64,000 nucleotides of DNA from an uncultured virus (IMG/VR IMGVR_UViG_3300005405_000008) (taxonomy: Duplodnaviria > Heunggongvirae > Uroviricota > Caudoviricetes). The DNA is taken from IMG/VR virus record IMGVR_UViG_3300005405_000008, positions 1 to 64,000 of that record. One strand, written 5' to 3'. Positions 12,188-57,541 of this stretch are shown here, in pieces. Every line of letters begins with the position of its first letter. The first letter of the stretch is position 1. The notes beneath the pieces were generated by a model. The model did not search any database, had not been told where the DNA came from, and saw only the letters and a program-made list of their open reading frames with translations. Position numbers and translations under genes: made by a program.

Positions 12188-12363
12188 CCGTTACTGAAAA
12201 CTTATAAGAAATTATAAAATAAATACATAATTTATAACTTTATGTTTCATTCCTTATTCATCGTGTTCTTTTTCATATTATTTCTAATACTACTAAAGTT
12301 TTTTAACACTCTAAAGGCTTAAATTCCCCACTAACGCATGGGTACATAATATCTATAATTGCA
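12188..12363 (-). ncRNA. Putative omega-RNA / right end of an IS607-like TnpB element
   Basis: Non-coding tract after the tnpB stop (...GUACCCAUGCGUUAGUGGGGAAUUUAAGCC...) ending in AAGUUUUCAGUAACGG. A GG terminus is characteristic of IS607-family ends. Confidence 0.55.
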
Positions 12364-18032: not shown

Positions 18033-19726
18033 CTGAAACTCCCACGCCTAAAGGCATGGGGTTCTTATGTACTAAATAATTTTCTTTAATACTCTCATTT
18101 ACAGGCATTACATTTCATCTGTATTTTACAACATATAAACACTAATCATTTTCCATAAGAATTTCACTATCAATCAACCCATTGGTCAAATTAACGATAG
18201 CATACGGCTCGTTTCTAAACCGTTATTTAATTGTTAGATTACATTTCTTAATGCTTTACTTAAATCCAAACTTCTTAATCTTTCAACCTCAATATCGTGC
18301 AACACTTTAAACTCATTAAACTTCTCAAAACACGAATCTCTATTAATTGTTTCCATATCATTATTCACACTCATTATCAGAAATGCTGAATATAAATCCC
18401 TTTGAATCTTAAATTCACTAAAATCATTCCATCTTTCTGACAAGTCCTTTTTGACATAAACATCATCAATATGATTATATTGACTTGCTTTAATTTTTAC
18501 TGTATCAATTTTATACAATTGGGTGTCATTCCATTTAAGTTTATTGTCCAAGATTGTTAAGAACATTGAAGGTGCTTTATTCGCTAATGATTTACCAAAT
18601 CTCTTCTTCTTATTAAACTTTCCATTTTTCTTATTAGTAGTTTTTTTACTTCTTTTCTGCAATCCAGAATAACTCATATTTTCAACATAGAATTTATCGC
18701 CTAAATTAATGATCTCATTTGCTAAAATATTGTGAGACTGCTTTCTAAGTGCAGATTGTTTCCTAAATAATTCTTTTCTAGCGTTCTTAATTTTAATGTA
18801 ATGGTTACTATAAACCCATTTATCTTTATTGCCTTTAATTATAGTACCATTATCATTGAATTTATTAAGATTTGTTGCTCTTCTCGATCTGTCCATTTTA
18901 CGCTGGAGTAATTTAACTTCTCTATCAATTTTATTGATGTTTGGTGCTAGTTCTAGAAGTTTGACTTGATATTGACTACTATAAGCAATTGTTTGCGTTC
19001 CAATATCAATTCCTACATTACCCTTGCCTATACTCCCTTTAATTTCACCTTGTTTAGTTATCTTCATTGGAGGAATACCATCTAAAATCAACTGAATATA
19101 ATAATGATTTTTCCCTTTTATCATTTTACGTACAATACGACAATACTTTATTTTATTTTCTAAAGACATTTTAGCATAAGTATCATTCTTTTTAATTACT
19201 ACAGATATTTTTAATCCATTCCACAATAGCACATTGTCTATAAATCTTATTCCAGTACCATTTGATTTTCCTTCTAAAGAATCTAAATCATTATAAGATT
19301 TATAACCAACTTTTTTAGCTGTATGAAACATTAAGCCTTGAAATGCCGAGAAACATCTTGTAGCTACTTTTTGCGAAGTAAATGCATCAATGTTTTTCTT
19401 GTATTTATGTTGCATAGGTTTAACAAAATCATGTAGTGAATATTCTGTCAAACCGTATTTGTTGTTTAATGCTTGAAACTGCTTATTCCGTTCTTTACCT
19501 TTTGTCATTTTACAAACTTTTTGGTACTCTTTTGATTGTCTTAATGTATTGTAACGCTTATATAATTCATTTAAACAAGCATTATACATTTTTCTCCCAA
19601 TTTCAAAACGCTTACTTAAAATATCTTCTTGATATGTTTCGGTTTTTAATGGTAGAGTTAAAACAAAGTTTGACATATATTCACCACCTTTCATTTAATT
19701 TGAGGGGAGAATAAACTCCCCATAAT
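18033..19726 (-). mobile_element. IS200/IS605-family (IS1341-like) tnpB-only element
   Basis: Preceded by TTGAT (19727-19731) and a GGGGAG/CTCCCC hairpin. The right end has hairpin CCCATGCCTTTAGGCGTGGG followed by AGTTTCAG (TCAG terminus at 18033). Confidence 0.7.
18234..19676 (-). CDS. tnpB: TnpB, long Firmicutes subtype without a Cys Zn finger
   Basis: RuvC I GIDIG, RuvC II VENMS, RuvC III QRDLYSA; KASQYNH replaces the CxxC finger. Confidence 0.85.
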   Translation of the reverse strand: MSNFVLTLPLKTETYQEDILSKRFEIGRKMYNACLNELYKRYNTLRQSKEYQKVCKMTKGKERNKQFQALNNKYGLTEYSLHDFVKPMQHKYKKNIDAFTSQKVATRCFSAFQGLMFHTAKKVGYKSYNDLDSLEGKSNGTGIRFIDNVLLWNGLKISVVIKKNDTYAKMSLENKIKYCRIVRKMIKGKNHYYIQLILDGIPPMKITKQGEIKGSIGKGNVGIDIGTQTIAYSSQYQVKLLELAPNINKIDREVKLLQRKMDRSRRATNLNKFNDNGTIIKGNKDKWVYSNHYIKIKNARKELFRKQSALRKQSHNILANEIINLGDKFYVENMSYSGLQKRSKKTTNKKNGKFNKKKRFGKSLANKAPSMFLTILDNKLKWNDTQLYKIDTVKIKASQYNHIDDVYVKKDLSERWNDFSEFKIQRDLYSAFLIMSVNNDMETINRDSCFEKFNEFKVLHDIEVERLRSLDLSKALRNVI

Positions 19727-26015: not shown

Positions 26016-27583
26016 TTAATTCACTTCCTTTATTTTATTTAAATAATCTTCTTCATACATCCATTTGAATCCACCACTTTTATGTTGTAAACCATTTAAA
26101 CATGCACTTATATTACTTGCTTTTGTTGTATTTTTTGCCTCAGTTATTGTCCTAAATGTTTTTATATATTCATTACTTAAACTTAATTGAATAACCCTTC
26201 GTTTAGTTGTATCTCTATTTTCATAATCCATTTTGTCAAAAGTTAATTCATTATACTTATCTTTATATATCCATATGTAACCACAAGCTGAAGCACCTCG
26301 CCCATTTGCACAATCTCTTATATTATTAGCACTTGTATTTTTACCAGTTAATGTAATTGACGCATCATTGGAGTTTTTCCACTCTTTAATATAAATACCA
26401 TCTAAATTTAATTGAATAATAGATTTAGAATGTTTTTCTGATAAAATAGTTTTTGTTTCTTGTGTATGATTCCACCCGAATTTTAATTTAGAAGCATCAC
26501 TCATCTTTTTCCTTGTTTCTTCAGATATTTTAGCACCTCTATTACTTTCGGCAAATTCCAAAACATTATAACCAAATTTGTTGTTAAAACATTGAGTTTG
26601 ATCAATCCAAAATTGTTCTCTTTTCGTTAAAAATTCAACATCACAAACTTCAATAACTTCTATATAAAAACTTTCTCCTCCGTCTTTATCCCACGCTCTT
26701 TGAAGGTGAACATTGTGACATTTTCCTTTAGGCAATGTATAAATATATCCAGAACTAATTCTATGCCACAAATCTATTGCTTGCCCAATATACACTTTTG
26801 CATTTTTAATATTAGTTATCTTATAAATACCACTAACATTTTTATATTTTTCAAAATTCTCCATACTATTTTTTGTATCTAATAATTTACTACCAATGTC
26901 ATTATCATAATATCCCATACTATTCTTTATATAATAATAACCACCACATTTAGCTAAAATTGAATAAGAAATTTGTAAATTATTTGACATTTCTAATAGG
27001 GAAGGAAAGTATTTATGCCTTTCAATAAAAATATTTATAATATTTTGTATGTTATTTTCATTAATGTAGAAATATAACTTATGTAAATTATTGCATACTT
27101 CAAAAATATTTAATTTTAATTCAAATATCATATCAATTACATTATCTTTATTTTGATAAAAAGATTCTTTTAATTGTGAATAACCAATATTAAAGATATC
27201 TTCAAATTTATTATTTTTTAAAAATATATGTAATTCTTTTAATCTATTGGGATAAAACTTCCAATAACCAGAATCGTTTTATTTAATATTCCTAACTCTG
27301 CTTTCTTTTTCTTTATTTCAGCAACTTTAAAATGAGCACATTTACTGCAACAATCTCTATTTATAATATCTCTTTTTTGTTTGTTATAATCTCTAAAGTA
27401 TATTTTTTGGGGTGTTTTACAATAATCACATTCATATTCGATGGTTATATTTGAATTAGGATGCACATCTTCAATTTTAACTATAAATGCGTCGCCTATT
27501 CTAGTAAAACAATAACCTTTTAGAATATAATATTCTTTTCCCCAATTAGACCAAACTACTTCTACTTCTTTTGTTTCTAACAT
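26016..27583 (-). pseudogene. GIY-YIG homing endonuclease (N-terminal Zn finger, NUMOD3/NUMOD1 domains) split by a -1 frameshift
   Basis: SGIYKITNIKNAKVYIGQA. ORFs 27239-27592 and 26016-27131 join (LNK-NDSGYWKF...DMIFEL) if one A is added at AAATAAAAC (~27277-27284). Confidence 0.8.
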
Positions 27584-27700
27584 CTCCAACAACCGCCTTT
27601 CATATTGTTTTATTAACCTTAAAATTTCTTCTCAAAAAGATAATAAACAGACAAACACTAAGGCGTTGTGTCTTTCGGGTAGCTCTCCCTAGTCTGTTTA
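27584..27700 (-). promoter_or_regulatory. Three-way-junction antisense leader
   Basis: P1 UAAACAGAC/GUCUGUUUA; P2 GGG-AGAGCUA-CCC; P3 GACAC-AACGCCUUA-GUGUU. The P3 loop is complementary to the SD-position AAGGCG (27594-27599). Confidence 0.7.
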
Positions 27701-28306: not shown

Positions 28307-28389
28307 ATTTCACTCCATATCATCAAATATCAAACAAAGGCACAACCAAATAAGTCATGCCTTTGTAATAAAATCAATTAATTTGTTTA

Positions 28390-30072
28390 TTAACTATATA
28401 TCCAATTTTGCTTAGTAATTTTTGCTATTTTTGCCCCGTTGTCATTATAATACATATAAAGAAACCCATTTTTATCAGGTCCCACTATCCCTTCATTAGC
28501 ATTACCACTTGCATATCTAGATAAATTCAATACTAATACGGTGTGCCAAGTTTGCCCACCGTCTGCTGTCCCAACAACAAATATTTGTTGATGTCCCGTT
28601 ACAGTAGGTACTTGAAAATACGCTTCGATGCCATCTTGAGCAATTGGCCTACCAGTATATTTTCCAGCACCAGTTCCAAATGCTGGATATATAGAATAAT
28701 CCAATGAAAATAAGAACTTTTCTCCATTTATATCTTTATAATTTGTATCTTTTTTAATTGATAAAACACAAGGAGGATATCCTCTATCTGGAAGCGCGGT
28801 GATAATATCAGGAAAAGATATTAATGTAGTTGGTTGGGGGAGAACTCCGTTTTCATCTGTTGCTCTTATCTCATTCCAATTTTGTCCTAAATCTTCAGAA
28901 TAATAAAGCATTGCATTAGTAGCATCACCAGTTTGTGCATAAATCCTGCCAGCATAAGGATCATAAGTTGATGCGTGCCAATGGCTATTATATACACTAT
29001 CTACCAATACTGTTTCTTTAAGTGAAACCCATGTTGCACCACCATCAAAACTACCAAATAGTCTCAATCCACCTGATGCTGGATTTGGAGACGTTATTAC
29101 ATATTCTCCACATAAAATTACCGTTTGATTTACACCAGCATTGTATATACTTGTGTTTAATTTAATAGGATATCCTCTATCCATTTCAACTATTTTTGTA
29201 AAACCACTTGTAAAAGTTGTTGAAAACCATATACCACCACGTTTTGTTGTAGAGTCGGTTTCTATAACAACATATCCTGCATGAGTTTGAAACACATGTA
29301 ACAAACTAGATGTAGATGGTATTAATCCGGAAAAATCTTGTCCATAATCCAATGCCGTAGCAAAAGCATCTGCTGTTCTAAATATTTTTTTTAAAGATGA
29401 ATAGCCATATAAAGAACCATCAAATCCAATACTAGACACATGTATTACGGTTCCATATGTGGAGGAATTAATAACGGAGTAATCTAGAGGTTTTTTAGGG
29501 TATGCTGATAAAGTTTTACGGGTTATCGCAGGAACAGAAGATGTATTAACAATCCTTGCAGTTTGAGTTTTTGGTGCGTTAACTGACGCAATTCCAGTTA
29601 CTGTTACTGTGCCTGAATAATATACATCTACCCTTACTCGTATTTTTTTAATTCCGACACAATTAATGTAGTAAATTCCACTTACTTGTGCTTTAGTAGA
29701 GGGTAATTCGGTAACCGAGTTATATGCCATTACTGGATTATAATATATATTATCACTTGTTCCCAAAAAATTAATTGTAGCCTTAAATGTACCAGAAACA
29801 CGAATGATAGCTGTTGTATAACCATCTACATTTAGATCAATACCATCACTGATAGCCGTTGTACCAGTATGCATTGTAAAATTTGCAGATGGTAAACTCG
29901 GTTTTAACCCTACATCACCAATAGACAGCGAATCTACTGTTATTCCTGAAACAGCTATGGCTCCATTTTCATCTACTGCAACATCCGCTAAATTTCCAAC
30001 AATCGCAACTGGTTGAGCACTTGGAAAAGTAGTTTGTATTATTCCTGAATTTTGAAAAAGCCCATTACTCAT
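28390..30072 (-). CDS. Virion protein with Asp-box (BNR/sialidase-like) beta-propeller
   Basis: Asp-box motifs SFDGGATW, SEDLGQNW and TADGGQTW; N-terminal beta-sandwich-like module. Confidence 0.65.
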   Translation of the reverse strand: MSNGLFQNSGIIQTTFPSAQPVAIVGNLADVAVDENGAIAVSGITVDSLSIGDVGLKPSLPSANFTMHTGTTAISDGIDLNVDGYTTAIIRVSGTFKATINFLGTSDNIYYNPVMAYNSVTELPSTKAQVSGIYYINCVGIKKIRVRVDVYYSGTVTVTGIASVNAPKTQTARIVNTSSVPAITRKTLSAYPKKPLDYSVINSSTYGTVIHVSSIGFDGSLYGYSSLKKIFRTADAFATALDYGQDFSGLIPSTSSLLHVFQTHAGYVVIETDSTTKRGGIWFSTTFTSGFTKIVEMDRGYPIKLNTSIYNAGVNQTVILCGEYVITSPNPASGGLRLFGSFDGGATWVSLKETVLVDSVYNSHWHASTYDPYAGRIYAQTGDATNAMLYYSEDLGQNWNEIRATDENGVLPQPTTLISFPDIITALPDRGYPPCVLSIKKDTNYKDINGEKFLFSLDYSIYPAFGTGAGKYTGRPIAQDGIEAYFQVPTVTGHQQIFVVGTADGGQTWHTVLVLNLSRYASGNANEGIVGPDKNGFLYMYYNDNGAKIAKITKQNWIYS

Positions 30073-30464: not shown

Positions 30465-31385
30465 TTATATAAACAATTCTTTTTCAAGAATTTTTTCAAT
30501 CTTATCTATATCCCAGTACCATATTTCTAGAAGTTTAATATTATTGTCTTTTGCATATTCTCTTTTTCTTCTGTCGTGTTCTTGTTGAGTTTTAAATTTA
30601 TTTTCACTTACATGGCTTTGTTGAAATTCATGATATTCTCCTTGATACTCAATCAATAAATTGTATTTAGGTAAATAAAAATCATAAGATAATAAACCAC
30701 CTCTTAATCCAATTAAACCATCAAACTCTTTTTGAGGTATATAATAAACATTTTTTAAGTCAAAAACTCGTTTACATTCTTTTTCACCTTTTGGTTCTTT
30801 ACACTCTGGGCAACCTGTTTTATTAGTGCTAGTTCTATTACTTATTCTCGCTTTCCACTCATGATTACATTTCTTACATTTCCACCAAACTTCTTTTCCG
30901 CTACACCAAGTTACGTCAAAAGGAGTTAAACTACCATTTCTAATTAAATTCCATTCTTTTATAAGTTCTGGATTTTTAGTTGCTAGACAGTTAGATAATC
31001 CTACTTTATGCCCAGAACAGTAGGGGCAACCTTTATTATTAATAATATTATTCCAAGTTGCATCAAATTCTTCTCTGCAATCTTCCTTTAAACATTTCCA
31101 TCGAAGATATTTGTCACTTCCTTCATATGTATCACTCAATAATTCAAAAGGTTTATTATTTAATTTTGCCCATAATTTTATATTTTGTATTGTGTAAGGA
31201 TTGAATAAATGAAATTTATCTGGAATATGATTTTTTAATAATGATTTTGCTCCAACAACATAATAATATCCTAATTCATCATATATGGTTATTTTTGTTA
31301 ATTGACCAACATATGTACTTGCTAATTTATAACCTAATTTTTCGACACCTATTTTAATAAACTCATTAGTTAGTTTTCTCCCCAT
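30465..31385 (-). CDS. Zn-ribbon + PD-(D/E)xK homing-endonuclease-like protein
   Basis: GCPYC...VWWKCKKCNHEW...GCPEC; SYDFYL...LIEYQGEYH. Confidence 0.8.
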   Translation of the reverse strand: MGRKLTNEFIKIGVEKLGYKLASTYVGQLTKITIYDELGYYYVVGAKSLLKNHIPDKFHLFNPYTIQNIKLWAKLNNKPFELLSDTYEGSDKYLRWKCLKEDCREEFDATWNNIINNKGCPYCSGHKVGLSNCLATKNPELIKEWNLIRNGSLTPFDVTWCSGKEVWWKCKKCNHEWKARISNRTSTNKTGCPECKEPKGEKECKRVFDLKNVYYIPQKEFDGLIGLRGGLLSYDFYLPKYNLLIEYQGEYHEFQQSHVSENKFKTQQEHDRRKREYAKDNNIKLLEIWYWDIDKIEKILEKELFI

Positions 31386-31493
31386 TTTATTCTCCTTCCG
31401 TCATTGAGATTAAATATAATGGAAAAGAGACTATGTAACGGCATAGTCTCTCGTTTTACACTTAATAAGCGTCGACTCTTATTAAGTAACCAT
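31386..31493 (-). promoter_or_regulatory. Three-way-junction antisense leader
   Basis: AUGG/CCAU closing stem; P2 ACUUAAUAAG-AGUCGACG-CUUAUUAAGU; P3 GAGACUAUG-CCGUUA-CAUAGUCUC. The loop pairs with UGACGG, which abuts the SD AAGGAG. Confidence 0.75.
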
Positions 31494-31518
31494 ATTTAAT
31501 TTATTATTTTGTTAATTA

Positions 31519-34074
31519 CTATGATATCTGTCTAATCTTCAACCAGTTACCCAATGAGGCCGTAACTGTCGCGCTATCGTTTGTGCATCTAAGTCCGATC
31601 TGTGTGTCAACTGTACATTCCAATATAGCAAATGCAGGACTTCCTGTTCCTGCTGACCCTGCAACATCGGCATTATTACCTTGTTCACCTGTATAACTAG
31701 ATGTTGTGTAGTTATAAAATTGATAACTTATTCCAGCATCATTTTCATTCAAGAGTTGTACCCCCATTAATTCATAAACCCCGGGATACAGTGTATACTG
31801 TCCATTACCATGATTGGTTTTAATCCCATTTGACACAACACCTGAACTGAAGTTAAGTAATATATTAGCTGCTGGATTAACTGCCACTATATTACTTGCT
31901 TTTAGATATGCAAGGTTGCTAACTTTATCCCATCTTGTGCCGTTATAAATATACTTACCAGAACTTTCATCTGTCACATACACCTCAAGTCCAGAAATAG
32001 GAGAAATAATCGCATCTTTTTGTGCTCTCGTCATCTTTGGTACAAGAAATCCACCAGTAGTACTAACAATCTTAAAATTAGCATCATTTTCTAATGCTAG
32101 ATTTATATCAAATTCTCCGTCTCCCATAAACCCTAATCTTGTATCATCTGGTTTTTTCCACTCAAAAAAACCCGTCCTAGTACCACCAGAATTCATTGTT
32201 ACATAACCATTAGTTCCATCAGCCGTACTGACTATATTAGTAACAACATCATTGGTTGTTAATTTTCCGTTAGTATCTACTTTAAATACAGATATATCAT
32301 TGTTATCTAACCCATTGATAATATTAGTTGTTCCATCAGTAGTCGTACCTTTAATGGTTACTTTATCATTAATATTTGGTTCGGTTGTACCAATTCCCAC
32401 ATTCCCTGAAAACGGCAATATACTCATTCTAGGAATCTGAACATTACTATTCGAACCAGCAGGTGTACTAAAATCCATTCTGCAACCATCACCCCATGCA
32501 CCAACTGGTATTTTTGTTGAAACAGAAGCATAAAACATATCATTTCCTAAATTAAGCGCACTAATTTCATAATCAGAACCAGAACCATTTTGTCCAACAA
32601 ATTCATTTGTTACACCTAATTTTGTCGGTGTAATAGTATTTTTAGTATGAACATTTAGTCCTGATGAAGAAGTTGAGTTAATGGTATTTAAGGTAATACT
32701 ATCTGTACATGCCGTTGATCCAATTTGCGTAATTTTAAAATATGACCTAGTAAGTGCTATACCAGTAATACCTGCAACAGTACCTGTTGTCATTACTTTT
32801 ACTGACATATTTTGAGTAGGAGTAATAATAGCTTTTGTTGGTAAACTAGAATCTGCTGACGCACTTTGTACAGGAACAGATAAACCTGTAGTACTAGTTG
32901 GTAAATAAGTTCCAACAGAATCAGTCCAAACATATTCTGCCCAAACAGAACCAGTATTCCCATTAAACTCTATAAATGCTTCTAACTCATATGTGCTACC
33001 TACTTTCAGGTAAAACATATTATTTGATACTTCAATATTTCCAACTACTAGAGAAACTGGAATAATAGTATTTGCAGTAGTAACATTAGAAGTAACTCTT
33101 GCAAAACAATAGTCTACAGTTTGAATTACTGTAGCTTGGTGACTTATTTCTTCAACTTCTAACCAAGCTGTTGTAATACTAGAAATATTAGAAGAAACTG
33201 TTAATCTAGGAGATATTTGAGTTTCAACAATTGGAGTAAAAGTATATTCTGTTTCTAAAATTTTAGCTTCATTAGTATTTCTTGTGATTGGATTTGCGGA
33301 ACCAGAAATTCCAACAAATTGTGATGCTGTTATGTTATAAAATTTTAACTCTGCATAAGCATTATCAGATGAAAATGTCATCATATTAATTGCACATCTA
33401 AGTCTATATTTAATATTTGCTTTTAATTTAACAATTCCTGTAGATGTATCATATGAAATATCAGTACCTTGGGAATCCTCGACAGTAGGAAATTTTATAT
33501 TTGTATTATCTGCAATTGCAACTGTTGTTCCTCTAGTTACTTTTAAATAACTTGCACTTGACCCTGTACTATTACGATTATCAGCACTAATATGTATTTT
33601 ACCAACTGCTGTGCTAGTTAAAGTCACACAATCATTTTGCCCGTATAAATAGATAGAATTTGTACTACCATCAATTATTTCAGTTCCATTAGCAATTATT
33701 CTTAATGTATAATTTGAGTTATCAGTTCTTTTTACGCATAAACTCTGTCCAATAGTTAGTGATGTAGAAGATGGTAGAATTACTGTGACATTATTCAATG
33801 ATGCATCAACTAAAATTAACTTGTTAAATGCAGTTATTATATTTGTTGCAGATGCTACATTTTGAACAGTCAATGAACCAGATCCTCCACCTAATCCAGC
33901 AGACCACGTATTTCCATCCCATGTATATATTTTTTTAGTTGTAATATCGTTATGTATTAAAAAATGAGATGGTGTATCTGTTGGAATACCAACATCAGCA
34001 CTTTCTCTATAATTTGATTTTGAAGTCCAATTGGCTACAATCCAATCATAAATTTGGTCACTAGTCATTGACAT
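31519..34074 (-). CDS. Tail fibre / receptor-binding-like protein
   Basis: Ser/Thr-rich beta repeats; GNVGIGTTEP and GGFLVPKMTRAQKDAI fibre motifs. Confidence 0.7.
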   Translation of the reverse strand: MSMTSDQIYDWIVANWTSKSNYRESADVGIPTDTPSHFLIHNDITTKKIYTWDGNTWSAGLGGGSGSLTVQNVASATNIITAFNKLILVDASLNNVTVILPSSTSLTIGQSLCVKRTDNSNYTLRIIANGTEIIDGSTNSIYLYGQNDCVTLTSTAVGKIHISADNRNSTGSSASYLKVTRGTTVAIADNTNIKFPTVEDSQGTDISYDTSTGIVKLKANIKYRLRCAINMMTFSSDNAYAELKFYNITASQFVGISGSANPITRNTNEAKILETEYTFTPIVETQISPRLTVSSNISSITTAWLEVEEISHQATVIQTVDYCFARVTSNVTTANTIIPVSLVVGNIEVSNNMFYLKVGSTYELEAFIEFNGNTGSVWAEYVWTDSVGTYLPTSTTGLSVPVQSASADSSLPTKAIITPTQNMSVKVMTTGTVAGITGIALTRSYFKITQIGSTACTDSITLNTINSTSSSGLNVHTKNTITPTKLGVTNEFVGQNGSGSDYEISALNLGNDMFYASVSTKIPVGAWGDGCRMDFSTPAGSNSNVQIPRMSILPFSGNVGIGTTEPNINDKVTIKGTTTDGTTNIINGLDNNDISVFKVDTNGKLTTNDVVTNIVSTADGTNGYVTMNSGGTRTGFFEWKKPDDTRLGFMGDGEFDINLALENDANFKIVSTTGGFLVPKMTRAQKDAIISPISGLEVYVTDESSGKYIYNGTRWDKVSNLAYLKASNIVAVNPAANILLNFSSGVVSNGIKTNHGNGQYTLYPGVYELMGVQLLNENDAGISYQFYNYTTSSYTGEQGNNADVAGSAGTGSPAFAILECTVDTQIGLRCTNDSATVTASLGNWLKIRQIS

Positions 34075-34099
34075 TACTTTAACCTCCTTTATTTTTACA

Positions 34100-35572
34100 T
34101 TAAAAAGAAGTGGATAAATTATTAACCACTTCTTGGTTTTCGTTATTTATATACTTGAAAATAAATCCTTTGTGTGATTTTTGTTTACCATTACAAACTA
34201 GAGATATACAAGACTGTAATAATTTTACTCCAAAGCAAGCTTCACTTTTTCTTTCTATATCATTTGTGCTTTCAAAAATTCCTAAAGATGTATCATTCTT
34301 AAATACCTCAACTTTCCTAATATTTACTTTATGACCTAACGATTTCATTCTCTCATTATTTGGATTATAATTACACCAACCAAATTTACTTCCTTCTTTT
34401 AAATATTTACATATTGTACTACGATTTAAATGTAATAATAAACCGATATCAGATGTTGATAAATTTTCGTTTTCTTTTTTTATTTCACAAGCTTTTTTTA
34501 CTAAATTACTTAAAGCAAATTCATCACATTTTATCCAATCAATGCTTGAAAGTTCTAATATATTTAACAATTTTGTATTAAATATATTAGTTTTTATATA
34601 ATCTATATCAGAAATTTTACAGTCAATTCTAATAATATCTATATTATTAATATTTGCTAGGTTATCTTTATAATTATCAATGTTTAGTGCATATTCTACG
34701 GTATATATTGAATTATTATATACTACTTTATTTCCGTGACCAATACCACCATCCATTTCGACAATATATTTTTTATTACCTAATTCAAAATAAAAATCAT
34801 ATCTTAATGGTTTAATCCAATCTGGAGAATATTCACTTAAAAAATCAATATGTAATTGTTCCAATATATTAAACATTATTTTTTCTGGATAACTCCTACC
34901 GTCTTTACAAGTACACCTTATTGTTTTATTTGTATAAATTGAATTAATAGACATAGGTCTATTCTTTATTCTTCCGCAATCAGGACAAATCGGGAAAATT
35001 GTTTTACTGCTTGATTTTGTATATAGTTTTGCTTCATCGTATCCACCTTGAAAATACTTAACCATCCAAAGGGCAGTTGTTGGGATATCATTAATTCCTT
35101 CAATAACTTTTTTAGGAGTTATACCGCAACAGGAGCATCCAATTCCTTTTAATAAATTATGTTCTATTAACCAATCTTCATGTCCACATTTATTACAATG
35201 ATATTTATATATCTTATCAAAACACTTATTATTCGCACTTATATGTTTTTCCCTGTCTATAATAATAAAATCTTGTTTTTTGTTTTTTATAGTTTTGCCT
35301 AATTTAATTTTAAATTCACTAGTTATTTTTCCTAACAATTTACCAAAAGCACAATCAGAAAAATTATCAGTATTAATTTCAAAAATCTCATTATCGAGAT
35401 ATTTAATATACAATTTATGCTTCTTATAATTATAATCAACTATTGTAACATAACCAGAAATATCATCATATATAAATTTACATTCTTTACCGATAGAATT
35501 TAACCAATTATATCTGCTTTTATTTTTTGGTATATTAGTTAAATCTATATGTTTATATAAATCTTTTTTCAT
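34100..35572 (-). CDS. Zn-ribbon + PD-(D/E)xK + NUMOD1 homing-endonuclease-like protein
   Basis: CNKC/CSCC/CPDC fingers; RYDFYF...IVEMDGGIGH; C-terminal ISLVCNGKQKSHKGFIFKY. Confidence 0.8.
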   Translation of the reverse strand: MKKDLYKHIDLTNIPKNKSRYNWLNSIGKECKFIYDDISGYVTIVDYNYKKHKLYIKYLDNEIFEINTDNFSDCAFGKLLGKITSEFKIKLGKTIKNKKQDFIIIDREKHISANNKCFDKIYKYHCNKCGHEDWLIEHNLLKGIGCSCCGITPKKVIEGINDIPTTALWMVKYFQGGYDEAKLYTKSSSKTIFPICPDCGRIKNRPMSINSIYTNKTIRCTCKDGRSYPEKIMFNILEQLHIDFLSEYSPDWIKPLRYDFYFELGNKKYIVEMDGGIGHGNKVVYNNSIYTVEYALNIDNYKDNLANINNIDIIRIDCKISDIDYIKTNIFNTKLLNILELSSIDWIKCDEFALSNLVKKACEIKKENENLSTSDIGLLLHLNRSTICKYLKEGSKFGWCNYNPNNERMKSLGHKVNIRKVEVFKNDTSLGIFESTNDIERKSEACFGVKLLQSCISLVCNGKQKSHKGFIFKYINNENQEVVNNLSTSF

Positions 35573-35676
35573 TTATTTCTCCTTTTCTGTCAAAAAGTTT
35601 TACATGGAAAAGAGTCATGTGACAGCATGACTCTTGTTTTACGTCTAATAAATTTGCAACCTTATTAGACAACCAT
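35573..35676 (-). promoter_or_regulatory. Three-way-junction antisense leader
   Basis: AUGG/CCAU closing stem; P2 GUCUAAUAAG-GUUGCAAA-UUUAUUAGAC; P3 AAGAGUCAUG-CUGUCA-CAUGACUCUU. The loop pairs with UGACAG, which abuts the SD AAAAGGAG. Confidence 0.75.
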
Positions 35677-35688
35677 TTTTATTACAAA

Positions 35689-38600
35689 TTAATAAATTTC
35701 AGATATGTTAATCTCACAATCAACTCCCGTTGTATATCCGAATGATTTTACTGCATCTGGAATTAAGAAATTCAAACCATCTGCACTTATACTCCATTTA
35801 TCAGCAGTAGCTAAAACCACACTGGAATAAGTAATATATTCTTTAGCAATTTCGAATATTGGCGTACTTAATATTTTTCCTGATACTACACACTTAGTAA
35901 CATCTGTAACCATAGTTCCAATTACTTTTGATAATTCAGAGTAAGTAAAATTCAAAACAATATTAGCAAATCCTCTAATATAATAGTTGATTGGAATACT
36001 TACAGAATCAATTCCACTAAGTCCTGTAACTACTAAATTTGTTGTATTTGCTGTATTAGAATGTGTATCTGAGGATTGTGCCGATATACCTAATCCATAT
36101 GTTGTTGTATAAGTCGAAGTTGTTCCAGTTACCAGTGTTCCGGCAGTTAATGCTGAAATACTTTTAATTTTTACCTTTTGACTAAAAGTAAGGGTATTTG
36201 TAACAGTGCCAACGCCCGACATTACATTATAAGTTAATAAACTTTGTGAAGACAATACAGGAGCGATATTTGCAATAAAAATACATCCATTTACACTTAC
36301 ACTTGAACCGTTACTATCTTTTCTAGCAACACCAGTAAAATTATCAATATTATCAACATAACTTCCACCAATTCTAGTTGCTGTAAAAGCACCAGTAGTA
36401 GAATTAACTCCACTTATTGAAATATCTGAACCAATAGCAGTCACAATTACACTTGTTTGATTTGAAGTATTAAATGTAACACTTGCAGTTTCGCTATTTT
36501 TTAATGCAGTTTGAGTTGATGGATATGTTATTGTATTCACACTAATTGTAGGAGTTAAGTCATTGCATATAATACTATTTGAACTTTCTACATAATCAGA
36601 CCAAGACCCAGTAGGACTTTTCACACGTACTTTAATTGTTTTACTAGATGATACTAAACCAGTAGATGCTACCGTAAATGTTAAATCAGTAAATGTCGCA
36701 CCTTGTGTTACATTTATAATTTTAGATGATCCTGCACCATAAGATGCTACCTCCACAGCAACAATATCTTTATCCGATATGATATCAAATGTCATAATGT
36801 CTCCAACTTTAACCTCTGTTTGTTGAACAGACCATGAAGATATGGGATAATCAGTTGGAGTATTATTTAGTGTTAATGTTGTAATTATTGGAGGAGTTTC
36901 TACAACTACACCTACTCTATAACTTGCTGTTCCAAAAGTTGCGGTTATTGCATTATCAGTAATTTCGCTAGTTGTAACTATCACTGTTCCGGTAAAAGTT
37001 CCTCCACCAACATTTGTAATATTTATTACATCAATACCATTAACTTTAGGTTGACCACAATATTCTTCTGACCCTCTATCCCAAATTACTGTAACTGTCC
37101 ATGTATCATCATCGGATGCAATACTATTTATTGTTGCTTCATTAGGATAATCGTTCATAGTTTTACTTACATTTTTACCTAAAGTGTTAGGTGTAATATT
37201 TGTAATAAAAATTGCACCATTTGAAACAACTTCATTTGAAATTACAACATAATCTTCTTCTTGTATATATTGAGTCGGTAAAATTTCCGTATAATCAAAA
37301 GTTTCAACTACATAGCAATGATCACGTTTACTTATTATTTGAGTATTTATTATCCCATCATTGGTAAAAATATAATGCTGTCCATTTGTGCCAGTTTGTA
37401 GCAATGAAAAGTCTTCACAAGAAATCGGAACCAATGGAGATGCACCACCAGAAATAGCAGATACAACCTTAGATAATGAAGATACTGATTTTGCAGAAGC
37501 ATATAATATACTACTATCTGTTGTCATACTGTCAGTTTTCTTTGTATTCTCAGTAACCCAATCTTGAGTCGCTAATTTTTCAAATGCAGCAGTTTCTCTG
37601 ATAATACTGCCCATAGGATAAAATTTCGGATCTCCAACTTGATTATTGTTAGTAATAGACCCTTTAATTGTTACGGCATTGCTAAATTCTATATTTAAAT
37701 AAAAGGGAGTATCTTTATCAATTGGGAATGGTTCATAAAAAACAATGTTATTTACACCAATAGATACTGATAAGCCTAATCCCTTTTTAAAATTTATATA
37801 ATTTATAGTTTCAAACATTATGTCGTCTTGGTCATCTGACTCAACCCATACACGAACAGTTGTACCACTTGGAACAGATATTAAATCAAGTCCACTAATT
37901 CCAGTATAAAAACCATGTACTAATGGCTGATATCTTGTTGTGAACTTTGTTATTGATTGAGCATTAGAAGTTCCTTCAGAATCAGTACATGAATTTAAAA
38001 CAAATGTAGAATCAACGCCAGTTGGATACATAGAAAAATATAATCCATTACTAATTAAACCAGCACGACCATAATAATTTCCAATTAAAACTCCATTATC
38101 ATCAACTGATGTTTTCAATAAAGTTCTTGAAGTTCCATCTCCTTTTAAACCTTGGATACTCCCTTGCCATTCCGTCAATATGAATTTATCGGATTTTACG
38201 GATGCTCCAAAACTAGTAATTAAATTATATTGAGAATTATATTCATCATATCTATAAAATGATAAATCATCATCTTCTTTTATAATTTTCCATGAATTCA
38301 CTGCATTTTTTGTTCCAAGATTTAATTCACCATTTTTAAATGTATCAAGAGAATCTATAAAATCTATTAAATCTTGTAATGTAGTGCCTGTAAACGTTGC
38401 AAGATTTTCAATAAGATTAGTTTTATTAACTGTTATTTTATTTGCTGTATCGAATCCTGTATGATTAGTACGATCTAAATAATAATTTCCATCATTAAAT
38501 GTAGAATCTGTACTATTTTTTAGTTTTTCTGATTTGTCAACTATACCATTATTATTTGTATCATAAGTTGATCTAAACATTGTGTCTGTAGATGATAAAT

Positions 38601-38739
38601 CCCAATCAAAAAACATTCCATTGACTAAGTTGAATCTAATGATACTTGTGTCTGGTATAGATTGAACTGTGTCTATGCCTATGGTGCCATATTTTATAGC
38701 ATTTGTTTTTGATAAACCACGAGCAATTAAATCTACCAT
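35689..38739 (-). CDS. Large beta-rich virion/fibre protein
   Basis: 1016 aa, Thr/Ser/Val-rich; YDTNNNGIVDKSE and YLDRTNHTG motifs occur in phage fibre proteins. Confidence 0.6.
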   Translation of the reverse strand: MVDLIARGLSKTNAIKYGTIGIDTVQSIPDTSIIRFNLVNGMFFDWDLSSTDTMFRSTYDTNNNGIVDKSEKLKNSTDSTFNDGNYYLDRTNHTGFDTANKITVNKTNLIENLATFTGTTLQDLIDFIDSLDTFKNGELNLGTKNAVNSWKIIKEDDDLSFYRYDEYNSQYNLITSFGASVKSDKFILTEWQGSIQGLKGDGTSRTLLKTSVDDNGVLIGNYYGRAGLISNGLYFSMYPTGVDSTFVLNSCTDSEGTSNAQSITKFTTRYQPLVHGFYTGISGLDLISVPSGTTVRVWVESDDQDDIMFETINYINFKKGLGLSVSIGVNNIVFYEPFPIDKDTPFYLNIEFSNAVTIKGSITNNNQVGDPKFYPMGSIIRETAAFEKLATQDWVTENTKKTDSMTTDSSILYASAKSVSSLSKVVSAISGGASPLVPISCEDFSLLQTGTNGQHYIFTNDGIINTQIISKRDHCYVVETFDYTEILPTQYIQEEDYVVISNEVVSNGAIFITNITPNTLGKNVSKTMNDYPNEATINSIASDDDTWTVTVIWDRGSEEYCGQPKVNGIDVINITNVGGGTFTGTVIVTTSEITDNAITATFGTASYRVGVVVETPPIITTLTLNNTPTDYPISSWSVQQTEVKVGDIMTFDIISDKDIVAVEVASYGAGSSKIINVTQGATFTDLTFTVASTGLVSSSKTIKVRVKSPTGSWSDYVESSNSIICNDLTPTISVNTITYPSTQTALKNSETASVTFNTSNQTSVIVTAIGSDISISGVNSTTGAFTATRIGGSYVDNIDNFTGVARKDSNGSSVSVNGCIFIANIAPVLSSQSLLTYNVMSGVGTVTNTLTFSQKVKIKSISALTAGTLVTGTTSTYTTTYGLGISAQSSDTHSNTANTTNLVVTGLSGIDSVSIPINYYIRGFANIVLNFTYSELSKVIGTMVTDVTKCVVSGKILSTPIFEIAKEYITYSSVVLATADKWSISADGLNFLIPDAVKSFGYTTGVDCEINISEIY

Positions 38740-39096
38740 CTACTCAATCACCTTCCCTTGAACACTTAAACTCCCACCATCTATAGAAACAAGATTCACA
38801 CGGAAACTTGATTTCCCTGTTAAATCGATTGTAAACAATTTACCACTTGTTTCTGTAGCACTAAGGACTAAATCCATTTTTGTTTCATCCCAAACTGGTA
38901 TAGAAACATAATCACCGATTAATCCTTTTGCTTCAAAATGTATAGTGTAGGTTACTGGTGTTGATTCGACTGTTGGTATAGTTTGCAATGCTAAAACTAA
39001 TATTGTGTTTGATCCAACATTAGCAATTTTGTATTCATCTCCATTACCTGCTTCTGTAGCAACATTATGAAAAACCCAATGTGCTCTTACTGACAT
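38740..39096 (-). CDS. Small beta-sandwich structural protein
   Basis: Resembles the N-terminal module of the 28390-30072 protein (xRVxV...GxVxVxG); abuts the next gene. Confidence 0.55.
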   Translation of the reverse strand: MSVRAHWVFHNVATEAGNGDEYKIANVGSNTILVLALQTIPTVESTPVTYTIHFEAKGLIGDYVSIPVWDETKMDLVLSATETSGKLFTIDLTGKSSFRVNLVSIDGGSLSVQGKVIE

Positions 39097-39193
39097 AGTA
39101 TTTTCACCCTTTCTTTTTTGATTCTTAGATTATTAGATTCTTTGGATTTTGAGATTATTGTTTGGAATATAGATTTATTGAAAAATAAAAAAT

Positions 39194-39238
39194 AAGGGGA
39201 GGTAAGATGGATTTTTATGTCCATTCCACCTCCCCTTA
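39194..39238 (-). terminator. Hairpin/terminator after the HNH gene
   Basis: TAAGGGGAGGT...ACCTCCCCTTA with a T-rich tail on the minus strand. Confidence 0.6.
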
Positions 39239-39351
39239 TATTTTGATGTTTTGTTGTTGGTTTTGTGAGTTGTTTTTTTGTTTGTTGGTAATAATTATAG
39301 ATTTGTACATTATCTATAATTATTTATTTGTGAGTTTATTTATTAATATTT

Positions 39352-40362
39352 TCATTTTGCTAATAGGAGAGATGTGAATTCTCCATTGTTATAACGTTGT
39401 TGGAATTCTGTGAATTGTTCTGGAATGTTATTGCCATAAGAATAAAGTGAGTGAAAAAGTTTGTGGACATTATCGGACAAACAGACACCTAACCCGTATT
39501 TATAATGTAATTCTAAACATCTGTCTTTTAATAACTTTAATTGATCATCCGGTAAATCTTCCACTTTAATTTTAGTAAAATCCATATCTAATTTTAATTC
39601 TTGAATTAATTCTTGCAATATTAAATTAAATGAATATAAATGATGTACTATAGTCGTTGTATTATTAGTCAAAACACACTTTCCATTATAAAATAATATT
39701 GAATCTTTTTTCCATTGCAATATATGTTGTCTAAGATAGTTGTGAAGTGGAGTAATTCCACCTTGATAATTCCAATTTCCTTCTCCAGAAATATTTTCTG
39801 CCCGACAATATTTACAACCTACGTCTTTTGTGGTATGGAAATGCTCTTTTTCTTGAATAATATTTGGATGATTATTGCATATACATTTCATAGATTGTCT
39901 TGAATTAATATATTCATCTTCTGTTGTCAAAAGTGTAAAATTCATATTCTCAAAATCTCGTTTTACCTTCTCAAAATCATTTCGTTTTAATAATCTAAGA
40001 TGTTCTCTATATTCAGGTATTTGTGAAGTATTTTCATATCCATAATTAATTAAATTACATTCTTTTATCTTAATATATTTACAATCATTACAAGCATCTT
40101 TATTAACTACATATGTATTTTTGCTATTAATGTAAGAATAATAAGGTTTTGGAAATACTTTTTCACAATAATCACATTTAACATCTACTTTATTATGTGA
40201 TTGTAATGGTAAATGTTCTATCTTAATTTTTATTTCAGTTCCTTTTTTGACTCTTTGTTTACCACTAGTGTCTTTATATTTTGGAATGTTATATCCCAAT
40301 TGTTCATAATAATTAATATTTTTTGATGAAAGTTTTATATTTAACTCTTTAGTTTCTAACAT
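39352..40362 (-). CDS. Free-standing HNH-type homing endonuclease
   Basis: CVLT...IVHHLYSFN...GVCLSDNVHKLFHSLY; N-terminal CDYC/CNDC finger. Confidence 0.8.
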   Translation of the reverse strand: MLETKELNIKLSSKNINYYEQLGYNIPKYKDTSGKQRVKKGTEIKIKIEHLPLQSHNKVDVKCDYCEKVFPKPYYSYINSKNTYVVNKDACNDCKYIKIKECNLINYGYENTSQIPEYREHLRLLKRNDFEKVKRDFENMNFTLLTTEDEYINSRQSMKCICNNHPNIIQEKEHFHTTKDVGCKYCRAENISGEGNWNYQGGITPLHNYLRQHILQWKKDSILFYNGKCVLTNNTTTIVHHLYSFNLILQELIQELKLDMDFTKIKVEDLPDDQLKLLKDRCLELHYKYGLGVCLSDNVHKLFHSLYSYGNNIPEQFTEFQQRYNNGEFTSLLLAK

Positions 40363-40469
40363 ATTATTTTCTCCTTCCCGAATCAGAGAATGGGAAAGAA
40401 GACTATATCTCGGATAATATAGTCTTCTTAATTACACTTATAAATTTGCGCAAATTTATAAGAAACCAT
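40363..40469 (-). promoter_or_regulatory. Three-way-junction antisense leader
   Basis: AUGG/CCAU closing stem; P2 CUUAUAAAUUUGCGCAAAUUUAUAAG; P3 AAGAAGACUAUAU-UAUCCGAG-AUAUAGUCUUCUU. Loop UCCGA pairs with UCGGG, which abuts the SD AAGGAG. Confidence 0.72.
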
Positions 40470-40494
40470 TTTTTAGTTTGTTAAATCTAAAATA

Positions 40495-55753: not shown

Positions 55754-57541
55754 CTATTGAGTTACTTCTTCCAAATATTTATATTTTCCATCATAATAAT
55801 TTTCAAGGAATTGATAAAATTGTTCAGGAGTATTGTTTCCATACCTAAACTCAACATGAAATTGGATATGATATTTTTTCTGCATGCATATCCCTAACGG
55901 GTAACGATTATGTATCTCCAAACATTTATCAATTAATTGTTGTAATTCTTCTTGTGTATATGAAGAGATATTCTCATATAATGGTATTCCAGTTTCATTT
56001 AAAGTATCTTGAACTATACTTCCAAAACTATATAAGTGATGAATATCATCAAAATTCTTTCCTGAAATAAAACATTTATAATTAGCATTATCCATACTAT
56101 CAAATTTCCACTGTTTTATATTTCTTCTTAATTCTTGTGACAAAGCACTAATTCCATTTTTATAATTAGGATTTAGATTGCCAAATCTTTGACTATCATA
56201 TTGAGGATTATCTTCGCCTTTCCATTTATCTAAAGATAATAATCTATCTGACGTAATTTTACCTAATTCAATAAACATTCTACCTAACGTTTCTTGTGCT
56301 TTATAAAGATTTAAATTATTTCCTTTGCACATTATTTGCCTATTTATTAGAAACGGAAAGTATTTATTTCTTATTTCATTGTTTGTCATACTAGAATAAT
56401 TATTTATTAATATAGTAGTTTCTTCTTGTGTCCAAATATGAATATTTGAATCAAATAAATATTCCTCTCCTTTACAAACTCGGCATACATTTCTTAAATT
56501 ATCTGTACATTTTTGGTCATCAGGAAAATATGCTCTATCTACTGGTAAGTATTCCTCACAACACTTACATAATTTATGTAATTTATTATCAATAATTTTA
56601 TACTGAATTTGCTTATAGTATTTTATATGATTATCTATTTTTCTTAAATCTAATTTTGTGCTAAGTGCATTACTGATTTTTCAGTTCTTATGGAAGTAAG
56701 TAAAGGTAATATATCTTTAATTGTTTTATGTTCATAATTTTCAATTATAATATCAATATCTTCTTGACTCCAAGGATCTGCTTTAAATTCTGGATAAAAG
56801 TCTTCGCCGTTGCATTCACGACAAATACCCCTATATCCATCTAAACATCTATCATCTACGTCATAAAAATCTCTATTGATAGCAAGTTCTCTGTTACAAA
56901 TTTTACACTTCTTATATCCATCTATAGAATCCTTATGTCTTCTATTAATTTGACATTTAATACAAATATTATAAAAACCGTCAGAAGATTTAACATAAGT
57001 ATTAAAATTAGTTTCATTTATTTCAAAAACTTCTTTACAATCTAAACATTTTTTAAATCCCTCTGGGATAATTTCTTTTTCTATTCCGAATATTTCTTTT
57101 CCACAAGCACATTCTTTACATTGACAAGATAAACTGTCTGGTCTATCTATGCTTCGAAAGAAATATTCAGTCGTTTTAGGAAATTCTCTTTTACATTTAC
57201 TACATGTTTTCGTTTCAGATTTAAATTTTTCTTCCCATTTTAATTTATTTATTTCAGAATTATATAAAGGTAAACAATCAATACAACAGTCTTTTTTTGA
57301 AGATCTCCTTGTATAATCACAATATAATACTGACTTTTCTTTTCCACAATAATCACATCTATACATAATCTTTACATTAGTTCCAGGTAAAAGATCTTCT
57401 ATTTTTACCTTTATTTTTGTACCCTTACGAATCACAAGTTTCTTTTTAATTTTTTTCTCTTGGTATTTCATAACCTAAATCTTCATAATGTTTAACATTT
57501 GATGGATGAAGTGTAACTTCTACTTCTTCGCTAACCAACAT
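55754..57541 (-). pseudogene. Large Zn-finger-repeat HNH endonuclease gene with two frameshifts
   Basis: ATG 57541 (MLVSEEVEV...GYEIPREKN, similar to the 40362 N-terminus). A +1 shift at ~57448-57456 leads into ORF 56650-57471. A -1 shift at CACAAAATTAG (~56650-56660) leads into an open frame continuous with 55754-56389 (FDDIHHLY...HIQFH). Confidence 0.8.

What the first reader, a model, noticed from the sequence alone, without database searches (positions are those of the whole stretch)
31386..40469. Three near-isomorphic leaders show natural compensatory covariation
The leaders at 31386-31493, 35573-35676 and 40363-40469 share an explicit scaffold: AUGGUU-[P2]-GUAA-[P3]-UU(U/C)CCAU-spacer-[target]-AAGGAG. 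Their stem sequences differ but remain paired, and the 5-6-nt loop/target pair changes in concert. They precede two different nuclease classes (PD-(D/E)xK twice, HNH once), so leader and cargo appear to be shuffled independently. The invariant junction bases (UU, GUAA) suggest a tertiary fold, a protein-binding site or a processing site.
Basis: partly seen in the sequence, partly recalled or inferred. Interest (0 to 1): 0.75.

Follow-up and report, generated by a model that had tools for sequence, protein, structure and literature searches.

The report
Kissing-loop leader RNA before homing endonucleases
Three selfish DNA-cutting-enzyme genes of this uncultured phage each start behind the same small folded RNA, in which one hairpin loop pairs with a second hairpin that buries the ribosome-binding site, most likely to keep these enzymes scarce.

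Summary
The three minus-strand leaders (31493-31386, 35676-35573, 40469-40363) share a scaffold expected 0.02 times by chance. I collected 54 unique relatives from the window and from viral and metagenome contigs. P2 and P3 covary. The P3 loop pairs 5-7 bp with a "target" next to the Shine-Dalgarno (SD) site in 53 of 54, using 26 different loop sequences.

- A pyrimidine anti-SD just upstream of the target pairs with the SD. The target is therefore the loop of an SD-burying hairpin (P4) that kisses the P3 loop.
- The P2 tip is a G/C-centred palindrome in 54 of 54.

G·U outnumbers A·C 52 to 2 in paired cells, so this is a sense-strand RNA. Of 31 downstream genes scanned, 29 hit endonuclease families of several kinds, including GIY-YIG. 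No Rfam family matches.

Best reading: a portable translational lock on homing-endonuclease genes. It is a new, more elaborate variant of the RBS-hiding hairpins known from T-even phages. Lock versus activator polarity and the role of the palindrome remain open.

The parts
31386..31493 (-). Leader 1 (W1), from AUGG to the base before the start codon
   Evidence: (CM 44 bits)
31460..31487 (-). W1 P2 hairpin, 10 bp; 8-nt loop 31470-31477 holds the palindrome GUCGAC
31425..31452 (-). W1 P3 hairpin, 11 bp; loop L3 CCGUUA at 31436-31441
31391..31409 (-). W1 P4: anti-SD UCUC 31406-31409, target UGACGG 31398-31403 (pairs with L3), SD AAGGAG 31392-31397
30465..31385 (-). HEG1, 306 aa; DUF4379 zinc fingers, phrog_559/9084/7140
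35573..35676 (-). Leader 2 (W2)
   Evidence: (CM 37.5 bits)
35643..35670 (-). W2 P2 hairpin, 10 bp; loop 35653-35660 holds the palindrome UUGCAA
35610..35635 (-). W2 P3 hairpin, 10 bp; loop L3 CUGUCA at 35620-35625
35579..35597 (-). W2 P4: CUUUU 35593-35597 pairs with AAAAG 35582-35586; the 6-nt loop UGACAG 35587-35592 is the target; SD AAGGAG 35579-35584
34100..35572 (-). HEG2, 490 aa; phrog_4538/9084/7140
40363..40469 (-). Leader 3 (W3)
   Evidence: (CM 134.7 bits; it is a seed of the model)
40437..40462 (-). W3 P2 hairpin, 11 bp; GCGC tip 40448-40451 within the palindrome UGCGCA
40396..40429 (-). W3 P3 hairpin, 14 bp; loop L3 AUCCGA at 40410-40415
40370..40389 (-). W3 P4: anti-SD UCUCU 40385-40389, target UCGGG 40377-40381, SD AAGGAG 40371-40376
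39352..40362 (-). HEG3, 336 aa; phrog_5104/12131

Best explanation
Each leader is a self-contained cis-acting RNA carried by a free-standing homing-endonuclease gene (HEG) cassette.

Fold. A three-way junction is made of P1 (AUGG/CCAU), a long hairpin P2 and a long hairpin P3. It is followed by a weak hairpin, P4, in which a pyrimidine anti-SD (mostly UCUCU) pairs with the Shine-Dalgarno (SD) sequence. The P4 loop is complementary to the P3 loop, so the two loops kiss and clamp P4 shut.

Proposed effect. The ribosome-binding site is hidden and the nuclease is made only at a low level, whatever polycistronic late mRNA the cassette has landed in.

Shown by comparison: P2, P3, the loop-loop pairing, the placement of anti-SD and SD around the target, sense-strand RNA, and association with HEGs of several classes.

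Inferred: that the fold represses translation rather than activates it, and that the junction serves to aim P3 at P4. The self-complementary P2 tip has no explanation; RNA dimerisation is possible.
For: Family size: 54 unique leaders.

Helices:
- P2 has double changes in 11 of 11 pairs, P3 in 12 of 14.
- 96.7% of cells are paired against 71.3% in shuffles (0 of 500 reach the observed value) and 40-58% when the partner is slid.
- RNAalifold recovers P1-P3 independently.

Loop-loop pairing:
- 5-7 bp in 53 of 54, at least 6 bp in 47.
- 26 distinct loops and 27 distinct loop/target pairs.
- Only 4 G·U among 332 pairs.
- Non-cognate combinations reach 6 bp in 8.5% of 2680.

P4:
- 4-8 bp in 54 of 54; 0 of 1000 shuffles reach the observed total.
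- The anti-SD lies 0-4 nt before the target in 52 of 54, and the SD arm 0-3 nt after it in 52 of 54. The target is therefore presented as the P4 loop.
- SD variants go with matching anti-SD variants, for example AGGAA with UUUCU/UUCCU and AGAGG with CCUUU.

SD accessibility and energies:
- Predicted unpaired probability of the SD has a median of 0.15 in 26 leaders against 0.59 in 24 other genes of this genome. This uses nested folding only, without the kiss.
- P4 alone is -1.2 to -2.9 kcal/mol; the kiss duplex is -5.0 to -6.3 kcal/mol.

Strand: G·U 52 against A·C 2 among 694 paired cells.

Coupling of partners: 6 P3+L3 modules are shared by 13 leaders. The target is always the same, while P2 always differs.

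Cargo: 29 of 31 downstream proteins hit PHROG homing/HNH-endonuclease families.

Precedent: RBS-sequestering structures control I-TevI/II/III, segB and mobE (PMC2988022, section 12, passages read).
Against: - No RNA or expression data exist for this element.
- Sequence alone does not give the polarity. A loop-to-upstream-of-RBS pseudoknot is an activator for plasmid repZ (PMC8383071, passage read).
- P1 never covaries. Its outer pair is broken and never compensated in 4 of 54.
- ATGGTT, GTAA and CCAT were fixed by most search patterns. Two scans left P1 free, but those fixed GTAATTAAA, TCTCT and GGAAGGAG instead.
- Alignment A8 was fitted to the model, so its pair counts lean towards that structure.
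- Many relatives come from a few related contig series. Cells therefore count sequences, not independent events.
- A constitutive lock does not explain why a junction and a palindromic P2 tip are conserved.
- Four other HEG-like genes in this genome lack the leader.
Confidence: 0.6

Rival explanations
1. Translational activator or switch, as in IncI-alpha/IncB plasmid repZ. In this reading the L3:target pairing competes with or reshapes P4 and is needed to turn translation on. A trans factor that masks L3, or something that opens the fold, might control it.
For: The geometry is the same as the repZ pseudoknot: a hairpin loop pairing just upstream of the RBS, which is required for translation (PMC8383071, passage read). 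P4 alone is weak, -1.2 to -2.9 kcal/mol.
Against: The target sits in the loop of P4, not in its stem, in 52 of 54 leaders, so the kiss and P4 can coexist. No leader-peptide ORF reaches P4: the ORF from the AUG of P1 stops in P2 or J23 in 52 of 54. No conserved antisense promoter can exist, because conservation ends at the start codon and the cargos differ.
Confidence: 0.15
2. Sensor RNA. The junction (U/UU, GUAAUU(A), C) or the palindromic P2 tip binds a small molecule or a phage or host protein. That binding sets whether P3 can reach P4, so HEG translation would be conditional.
For: UGG...CCA and the junction bases are sequence-conserved without covariation, also in model-only hits and in the P1-free scans. 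The P2 tip is a palindrome in 54 of 54, which a monomer hairpin cannot use.
Against: Only about ten unpaired junction bases are available. P2 and P3 are long, regular helices without internal loops, unlike most aptamers. No Rfam riboswitch matches. No candidate ligand or protein is known.
Confidence: 0.12
3. RNA processing, stability or termination element. The hairpins right after the upstream gene's stop codon would protect that mRNA's 3' end, end transcription, or form an RNase or self-cleavage site that separates the HEG from host-gene mRNA.
For: In 27 of 29 cases the leader begins 6-102 nt after a same-strand upstream ORF. P3 has an A-rich 5' flank and a U-rich 3' flank.
Against: The terminator scan calls none of the three P3 hairpins on the minus strand. 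This reading does not explain the loop/target covariation or the anti-SD. No ribozyme family matches at E up to 10.
Confidence: 0.08
4. DNA-level element: a recombination or homing site, a cruciform, or an operator for a dimeric DNA-binding protein.
For: The P2 tips are DNA palindromes: TTGCAA, TTCGAA, GTCGAC, TGCGCA and others. The modules look recombined.
Against: G·U 52 against A·C 2 in paired cells, so the opposite strand would carry mismatches. The L3/target complementarity is not a palindrome, and it sits beside the SD.
Confidence: 0.03

Closest known systems
RBS-sequestering RNA structures of T-even phage homing-endonuclease genes (I-TevI, I-TevII, I-TevIII, segB; mobE of Aeh1)
   Same: A cis RNA structure hides the Shine-Dalgarno site of a phage HEG that lies on long polycistronic transcripts (PMC2988022, section 12, passages read).
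   Different: Those are single hairpins, each specific to its gene, and a late promoter placed inside or next to the structure relieves them. Here one conserved multi-helix fold (a three-way junction plus kissing hairpins) is shared by HEGs of several nuclease classes. No internal promoter is evident: promoter-like sites number 77 against 78.6 expected.
repZ/repA pseudoknot of IncI-alpha/IncB plasmids
   Same: A hairpin loop pairs with a sequence immediately upstream of the RBS (PMC8383071, passage read).
   Different: There the pairing activates translation, and an antisense RNA blocks it; that it depends on a leader peptide is from my recall. Here no ORF reaches the SD hairpin, and the target lies in a hairpin loop.
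Loop-loop kissing complexes (TAR-TAR*, ColE1 RNA I/II; retroviral DIS loops) - from recall, not from a call
   Same: A 6-7-nt loop pairs fully with another hairpin loop. The P2 loops are a purine, a 6-nt palindrome and a purine, like a dimerisation initiation site.
   Different: Here the kiss is intramolecular and serves an SD hairpin. Dimerisation through P2 is only a conjecture.
Three-armed kissing-loop leaders before phage endonucleases noted elsewhere in this scan (e1-5709322, e1-5915655, e1-5767340, e1-5868531 and others)
   Same: By their descriptions: a three-way junction, one loop matched to the gene's RBS region, a second self-complementary loop, upstream of unrelated HEGs, and absent from Rfam.
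   Different: These are unchecked AI notes and no sequences were available. The look-ups by sequence found no look-alike, so membership in the same family could not be tested.

Membership tests
T-even-type HEG RBS-sequestering hairpin control | The SD of the HEG is paired in an RNA structure | tested here: met
   P4 is present in 54 of 54. SD unpaired probability has a median of 0.15 against 0.59 in control genes. This is prediction only.
T-even-type HEG RBS-sequestering hairpin control | A late promoter is placed so that late transcripts lack the inhibitory arm | tested here: inconclusive
   The sigma-70-type scan finds 77 sites against 78.6 expected, none conserved in the leaders. This phage's own promoter types are unknown.
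repZ-type activating pseudoknot | Hairpin loop pairs just 5' of the RBS | tested here: met
repZ-type activating pseudoknot | Leader-peptide translation opens the SD structure (feature from recall) | tested here: not met
   The ORF from the AUG of P1 ends in P2 or J23 in 52 of 54 and has no constant length.
   No match at E up to 10 in the whole 122-kb record. The family is not listed.
Any Rfam 15 family, including self-cleaving ribozymes and riboswitches | Score at or above the family's gathering score | tested here: not met
   Best scores at the leaders are caiA 19.3 bits (threshold 55.5) and MIR5512 17.3 bits (threshold 139). Nothing at the leaders.
Group I intron carrying the HEG | Intron core RNA present and host gene split | tested here: not met
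   No intron model matches. The flanking ORFs have their own stops and starts. The sheath match runs to profile position 788 of 798.
Riboswitch | Binding of a specific ligand | not testable with these tools
   Only conserved junction bases are seen.

The most novel reading that the evidence does not exclude
The leader is not a passive lock but a mobile, addressable RNA switch. The gene-specific L3/P4 'barcode' keeps several leaders on one mRNA from cross-talking. The always-palindromic P2 tip makes two leader RNAs pair with each other or recruits a dimeric factor. HEG translation would then be gated by RNA concentration, infection stage or co-infection. That would make it a riboregulator class that travels with selfish nucleases.
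Probability: 0.15. Interest if true: 0.85.

Novelty: new variant of a known kind. Interest (0 to 1): 0.6.

Why it matters
Homing endonucleases must be expressed enough to spread but not enough to harm their phage. How free-standing HEGs outside the T4 group manage this is largely unknown.

This element is a compact RNA module with strong comparative support. It is shared by unrelated nuclease genes and recombined in pieces, which suggests a common portable solution. It is also a clean natural example of an intramolecular kissing loop used to hide a ribosome-binding site.

It matches no Rfam family. I found no description in four literature searches. The many natural loop/target pairs form a ready-made set of mutually distinct RNA pairings that could be tested as orthogonal translational regulators.

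Tried and rejected
Searches that found nothing or only chance matches:
Of the 122 loci then held, only the 3 own loci had two long hairpins.
- Megablast of 12 kb against phage records: no match.
- Single-protein locus searches with the sheath and with HEG3: none confirmed.
- Reference prokaryote genomes: 33 pattern matches, none confirmed by the model.
- No RNA holder listed among sequencing runs.
- PDB sequence searches with the three HEGs: uninformative for the nuclease domains.

Tests that were inconclusive:
- Empty-site test with the 851-aa neighbour: only 2 of 29 records had a homologue. One was again followed by a leader plus HEG; the other had different neighbours.
- Whether leaders within one genome avoid sharing loops: noted by eye, not tested formally.

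Ideas rejected:
- Mini-ORF starting at the AUG of P1: no constant length or stop position.
- Sigma-70 promoter inside the leader: no enrichment.
- P3 as a terminator: not called on the minus strand.
- A cis partner for the P2 palindromes: no second GTCGAC or TGCGCA within 28-44 kb.
- int-alpA membership: no match.
- Group I intron: no match.
- Antisense-RNA control: no conserved place for a promoter.
Full report
**Observation.** The three leaders lie on the minus strand. Each runs from an AUGG (31493, 35676, 40469) to the base before the start codon of an ORF (30465-31385, 34100-35572, 39352-40362).
- The scaffold ATGGTT-N-GTAA-N-TTYCCAT occurs 3 times in the window against 0.02 expected; 0 of 100 shuffles reach 3.
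- It occurs nowhere else in the 122,175-bp virus record that holds the window.
- Each leader folds better than all 200 dinucleotide shuffles, with z = -3.6 to -4.1.
- The surrounding genes are phage late genes on the same strand: tail sheath 35689-38739 and virion proteins.
- Each leader starts 12-25 nt after the stop of the upstream gene.

**Anatomy.**
- P1 is AUGG/CCAU.
- One or two U follow. RNAalifold pairs the second U with the G of GUAA in 26 of 26 sequences.
- P2 is a hairpin of 8-13 bp.
- J23 is GUAAUU(A), or GUAAAAC in leaders 1 and 2.
- P3 is a hairpin of 9-15 bp with a loop (L3) of mostly 6-7 nt, usually CCNNUA.
- One or two junction bases follow, then the 3' arm of P1.
- The tail holds a pyrimidine run (mostly UCUCU), then 0-4 nt, a 5-7-nt target complementary to L3, then 0-3 nt, the SD (mostly AAGGAG) and the start codon.
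- The pyrimidine run is complementary to the SD. The target is therefore the loop of a small SD-burying hairpin, P4, and L3:target is a loop-loop kiss.

**Relatives.** There is no close DNA relative among phage records.
- Pattern scans of viral contigs, filtered by hairpin checks or by a covariance model built from leader 3 and one relative (R1), gave:
  - 10 true sites of 61;
  - 2 of 46;
  - 19 of 41 new loci.
- Whole-record model searches and one by-eye find added sites that no pattern had selected: L187, L289, L293, L294, L302.
- A pattern that leaves P1 free (GTAATTAAA...TCTCT...GGAAGGAG) hit 9 viral loci, all at leaders. It also hit 61 metagenome loci, 35 of them confirmed by the model.
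- Reference prokaryote genomes gave 33 pattern matches, none confirmed.
- In all, 62 collected sequences reduce to 54 unique leaders.

**Covariation.** On the 26-sequence model alignment:
- P2 has double changes in 11 of 11 pairs, and P3 in 12 of 14.
- 96.7% of cells pair, against 71.3% after shuffling (0 of 500 reach the observed value) and 40-58% when partners are slid.
- P1 never varies.

This alignment was fitted to the model, and many sequences are close kin, so these figures count sequences, not events. RNAalifold on the same alignment finds P1-P3 by itself, with 20 of 25 pairs showing compensated changes.

For the kiss I parsed each sequence on its own:
- Pairing length is 4 bp in 1 leader (a parser artefact at L274), 5 in 6, 6 in 31 and 7 in 16.
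- There are 26 distinct loops and 27 distinct loop/target pairs.
- Only 4 G·U occur among 332 pairs.
- Loops paired with the tails of other leaders reach 6 bp in 8.5% of 2680 combinations.
- Shuffled loops never reached the observed total, 0 of 2000 (first 26 leaders).
- When the loop grows by one base, the target grows too (for example CCGAUA/UAUCGG against CCGAUUA/UAAUCGG).

For P4:
- It is 4-8 bp in 54 of 54; 0 of 1000 shuffles reach the observed total.
- Rarer SD forms go with matching anti-SD forms.

**RNA, and which strand.** Paired cells hold 52 G·U and 2 A·C. The structure therefore exists in the HEG-sense RNA, not in DNA and not in an antisense RNA.

**P1 and the junction.** In the scans that did not fix P1, the 30 unique metagenome leaders have:
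- AUGG in 28 and UUGG in 2;
- CCAU in 28 and CCAA in 2.

None of these changes is compensated. UGG...CCA is thus conserved as sequence. P1 as a helix is plausible but unproven.

**P2 tip.** In 54 of 54 leaders the tip of P2 is a Watson-Crick palindrome with a G/C centre:
- UUGCAA 21, UUCGAA 17, GCGC 6, UGCGCA 2, UAGCUA 3, GGCC 3, GUCGAC 1, CGCG 1.
- It is mostly presented as purine, hexamer, purine.
- L3 loops, as a control, hold no palindrome of 6 nt.
- A monomer hairpin cannot use these pairs.
- The window holds no second GUCGAC or UGCGCA nearby.

This feature is unexplained. RNA-RNA dimerisation and a dimeric binding factor are both conjectures.

**Cargo and mobility.**
- Of 31 downstream proteins scanned, 29 hit PHROG families annotated as homing or HNH endonucleases. 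One hit only phrog_5104, and one hit nothing.
- The cargos are of several kinds: DUF4379 zinc-finger proteins with a phrog_559/9084/7140 domain (HEG1 type), phrog_4538 (HEG2 type), phrog_12131/DUF7487 (HEG3 type), and GIY-YIG with NUMOD domains (L272, L265, L256, L312).
- Cargos of the newer metagenome leaders were not scanned.
- Six P3+L3 modules recur in 13 leaders. The target is always the same, but P2 always differs and so do the cargo starts. The interacting partners travel together while the rest is reshuffled.
- The HEG3-type relatives whose upstream genes I scanned (5 loci) sit at the same place as in the window, after a phrog_2729 virion gene.
- Four other HEG-like genes in this genome have no such leader.
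- One relative carries a decayed copy without anti-SD and target, in front of a non-HEG ORF.

**Mechanism.**
- Even without the kiss, the SD is predicted mostly paired: median unpaired probability 0.15 in 26 leaders against 0.59 in 24 other genes of this genome.
- P4 alone is weak (-1.2 to -2.9 kcal/mol), and the kiss adds a duplex worth -5.0 to -6.3 kcal/mol.
- The target is placed in the P4 loop rather than in its stem, which means P4 and the kiss can coexist.
- I therefore favour a lock: a self-contained fold that hides the RBS wherever the cassette lands. Confidence is 0.6 for repression, and about 0.9 for the fold itself.
- The junction may serve to steer the 3' tail back along P3. That is inference.
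- The main rival is an activating pseudoknot of the repZ kind (PMC8383071, passage read). Against it, no leader ORF reaches P4.
- A ligand- or protein-controlled switch, a processing or stability element, and a DNA element rank lower.

**Known things.**
- No Rfam family matches:
  - at gathering thresholds, only RAGATH-18 elsewhere in the window;
  - at E up to 10, nothing at the leaders;
  - on 141-nt stretches, the best scores are 19.3 bits (caiA, threshold 55.5) and 17.3 bits.
- The nearest published kind is the set of RBS-sequestering hairpins of T-even HEGs (PMC2988022, passages of section 12 read).
- Four full-text searches found no description of a kissing-loop or three-way-junction HEG leader. 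For these I saw search listings and abstracts only, apart from the passages read. The library lacks most subscription journals.
- After my analysis, earlier AI notes of this scan turned out to describe similar three-armed leaders, with an RBS-matched loop and a self-complementary loop, in other phages. They are unchecked, and I could not compare sequences. They are not independent support.

**Limits.**
- There are no expression data, and no RNA run was listed.
- E-values of R1 are rough.
- Most family members were found through patterns that fix parts of the motif.
- The nuclease-class labels rest on PHROG names and on motifs I read by eye and recognised from recall.

Noticed in passing
window 12250-12317 (-) and 12364-13554 (-): RAGATH-18 (RF03064, 56.5 bits) lies 46 nt downstream of a 396-aa phrog_506 'transposase' ORF. 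This looks like an IS607-type TnpB with its guide RNA (PMC11061315, abstract seen in the listing).
   Followed up: partly
window 5165-8932, 9281-10105, 10221-12146 (all -): Two separate ORFs hit different parts of the same tape-measure family: phrog_4211 positions 2098-2449 and 285-844. A D5-like-regulator ORF lies between them and the TnpB element sits just upstream. The tape-measure gene may be split by insertions.
   Followed up: no
window 18234-19694 (-); G000 109203-109577 and 109622-111073 (+): Two further phrog_506 transposase-like ORFs, one of them beside a phrog_2577 transposase. The part of the record beyond 64 kb was not scanned against Rfam.
   Followed up: no
window 26016-27131, 27239-27592, about 56650-57540 (all -); G000 80541-81317 (-): Four more HEG-like ORFs lack this leader: a GIY-YIG type, a 117-aa N-terminal piece of the HEG3 type, an ORF that starts MLVSEEVEV, and a phrog_953 HNH.
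   Followed up: partly
L312 3538-3638 (-): Decayed copy of the leader before a 373-aa ORF with no PHROG match. It has AUUG in place of AUGG, a non-palindromic P2 tip, and no anti-SD or target. It may be a scar of a lost HEG.
   Followed up: partly
about 20 nt upstream of each AUGG (window 31494-31513, 35677-35696, 40470-40489 and relatives): An AT-rich, half-conserved stretch (consensus A.AAA.A.TTA.AT) directly precedes P1 in 29 leaders. It could be a promoter element or only stop-codon context.
   Followed up: no
window 28322-28406 (-): A separate strong double-hairpin region between the 560-aa ORF and the RuvC-like gene, unrelated in sequence to the leaders.
   Followed up: no
window 39097-39351: A 255-nt non-coding gap downstream of HEG3. 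The gaps after HEG1 and HEG2 are only 23 and 25 nt. Not inspected.
   Followed up: no
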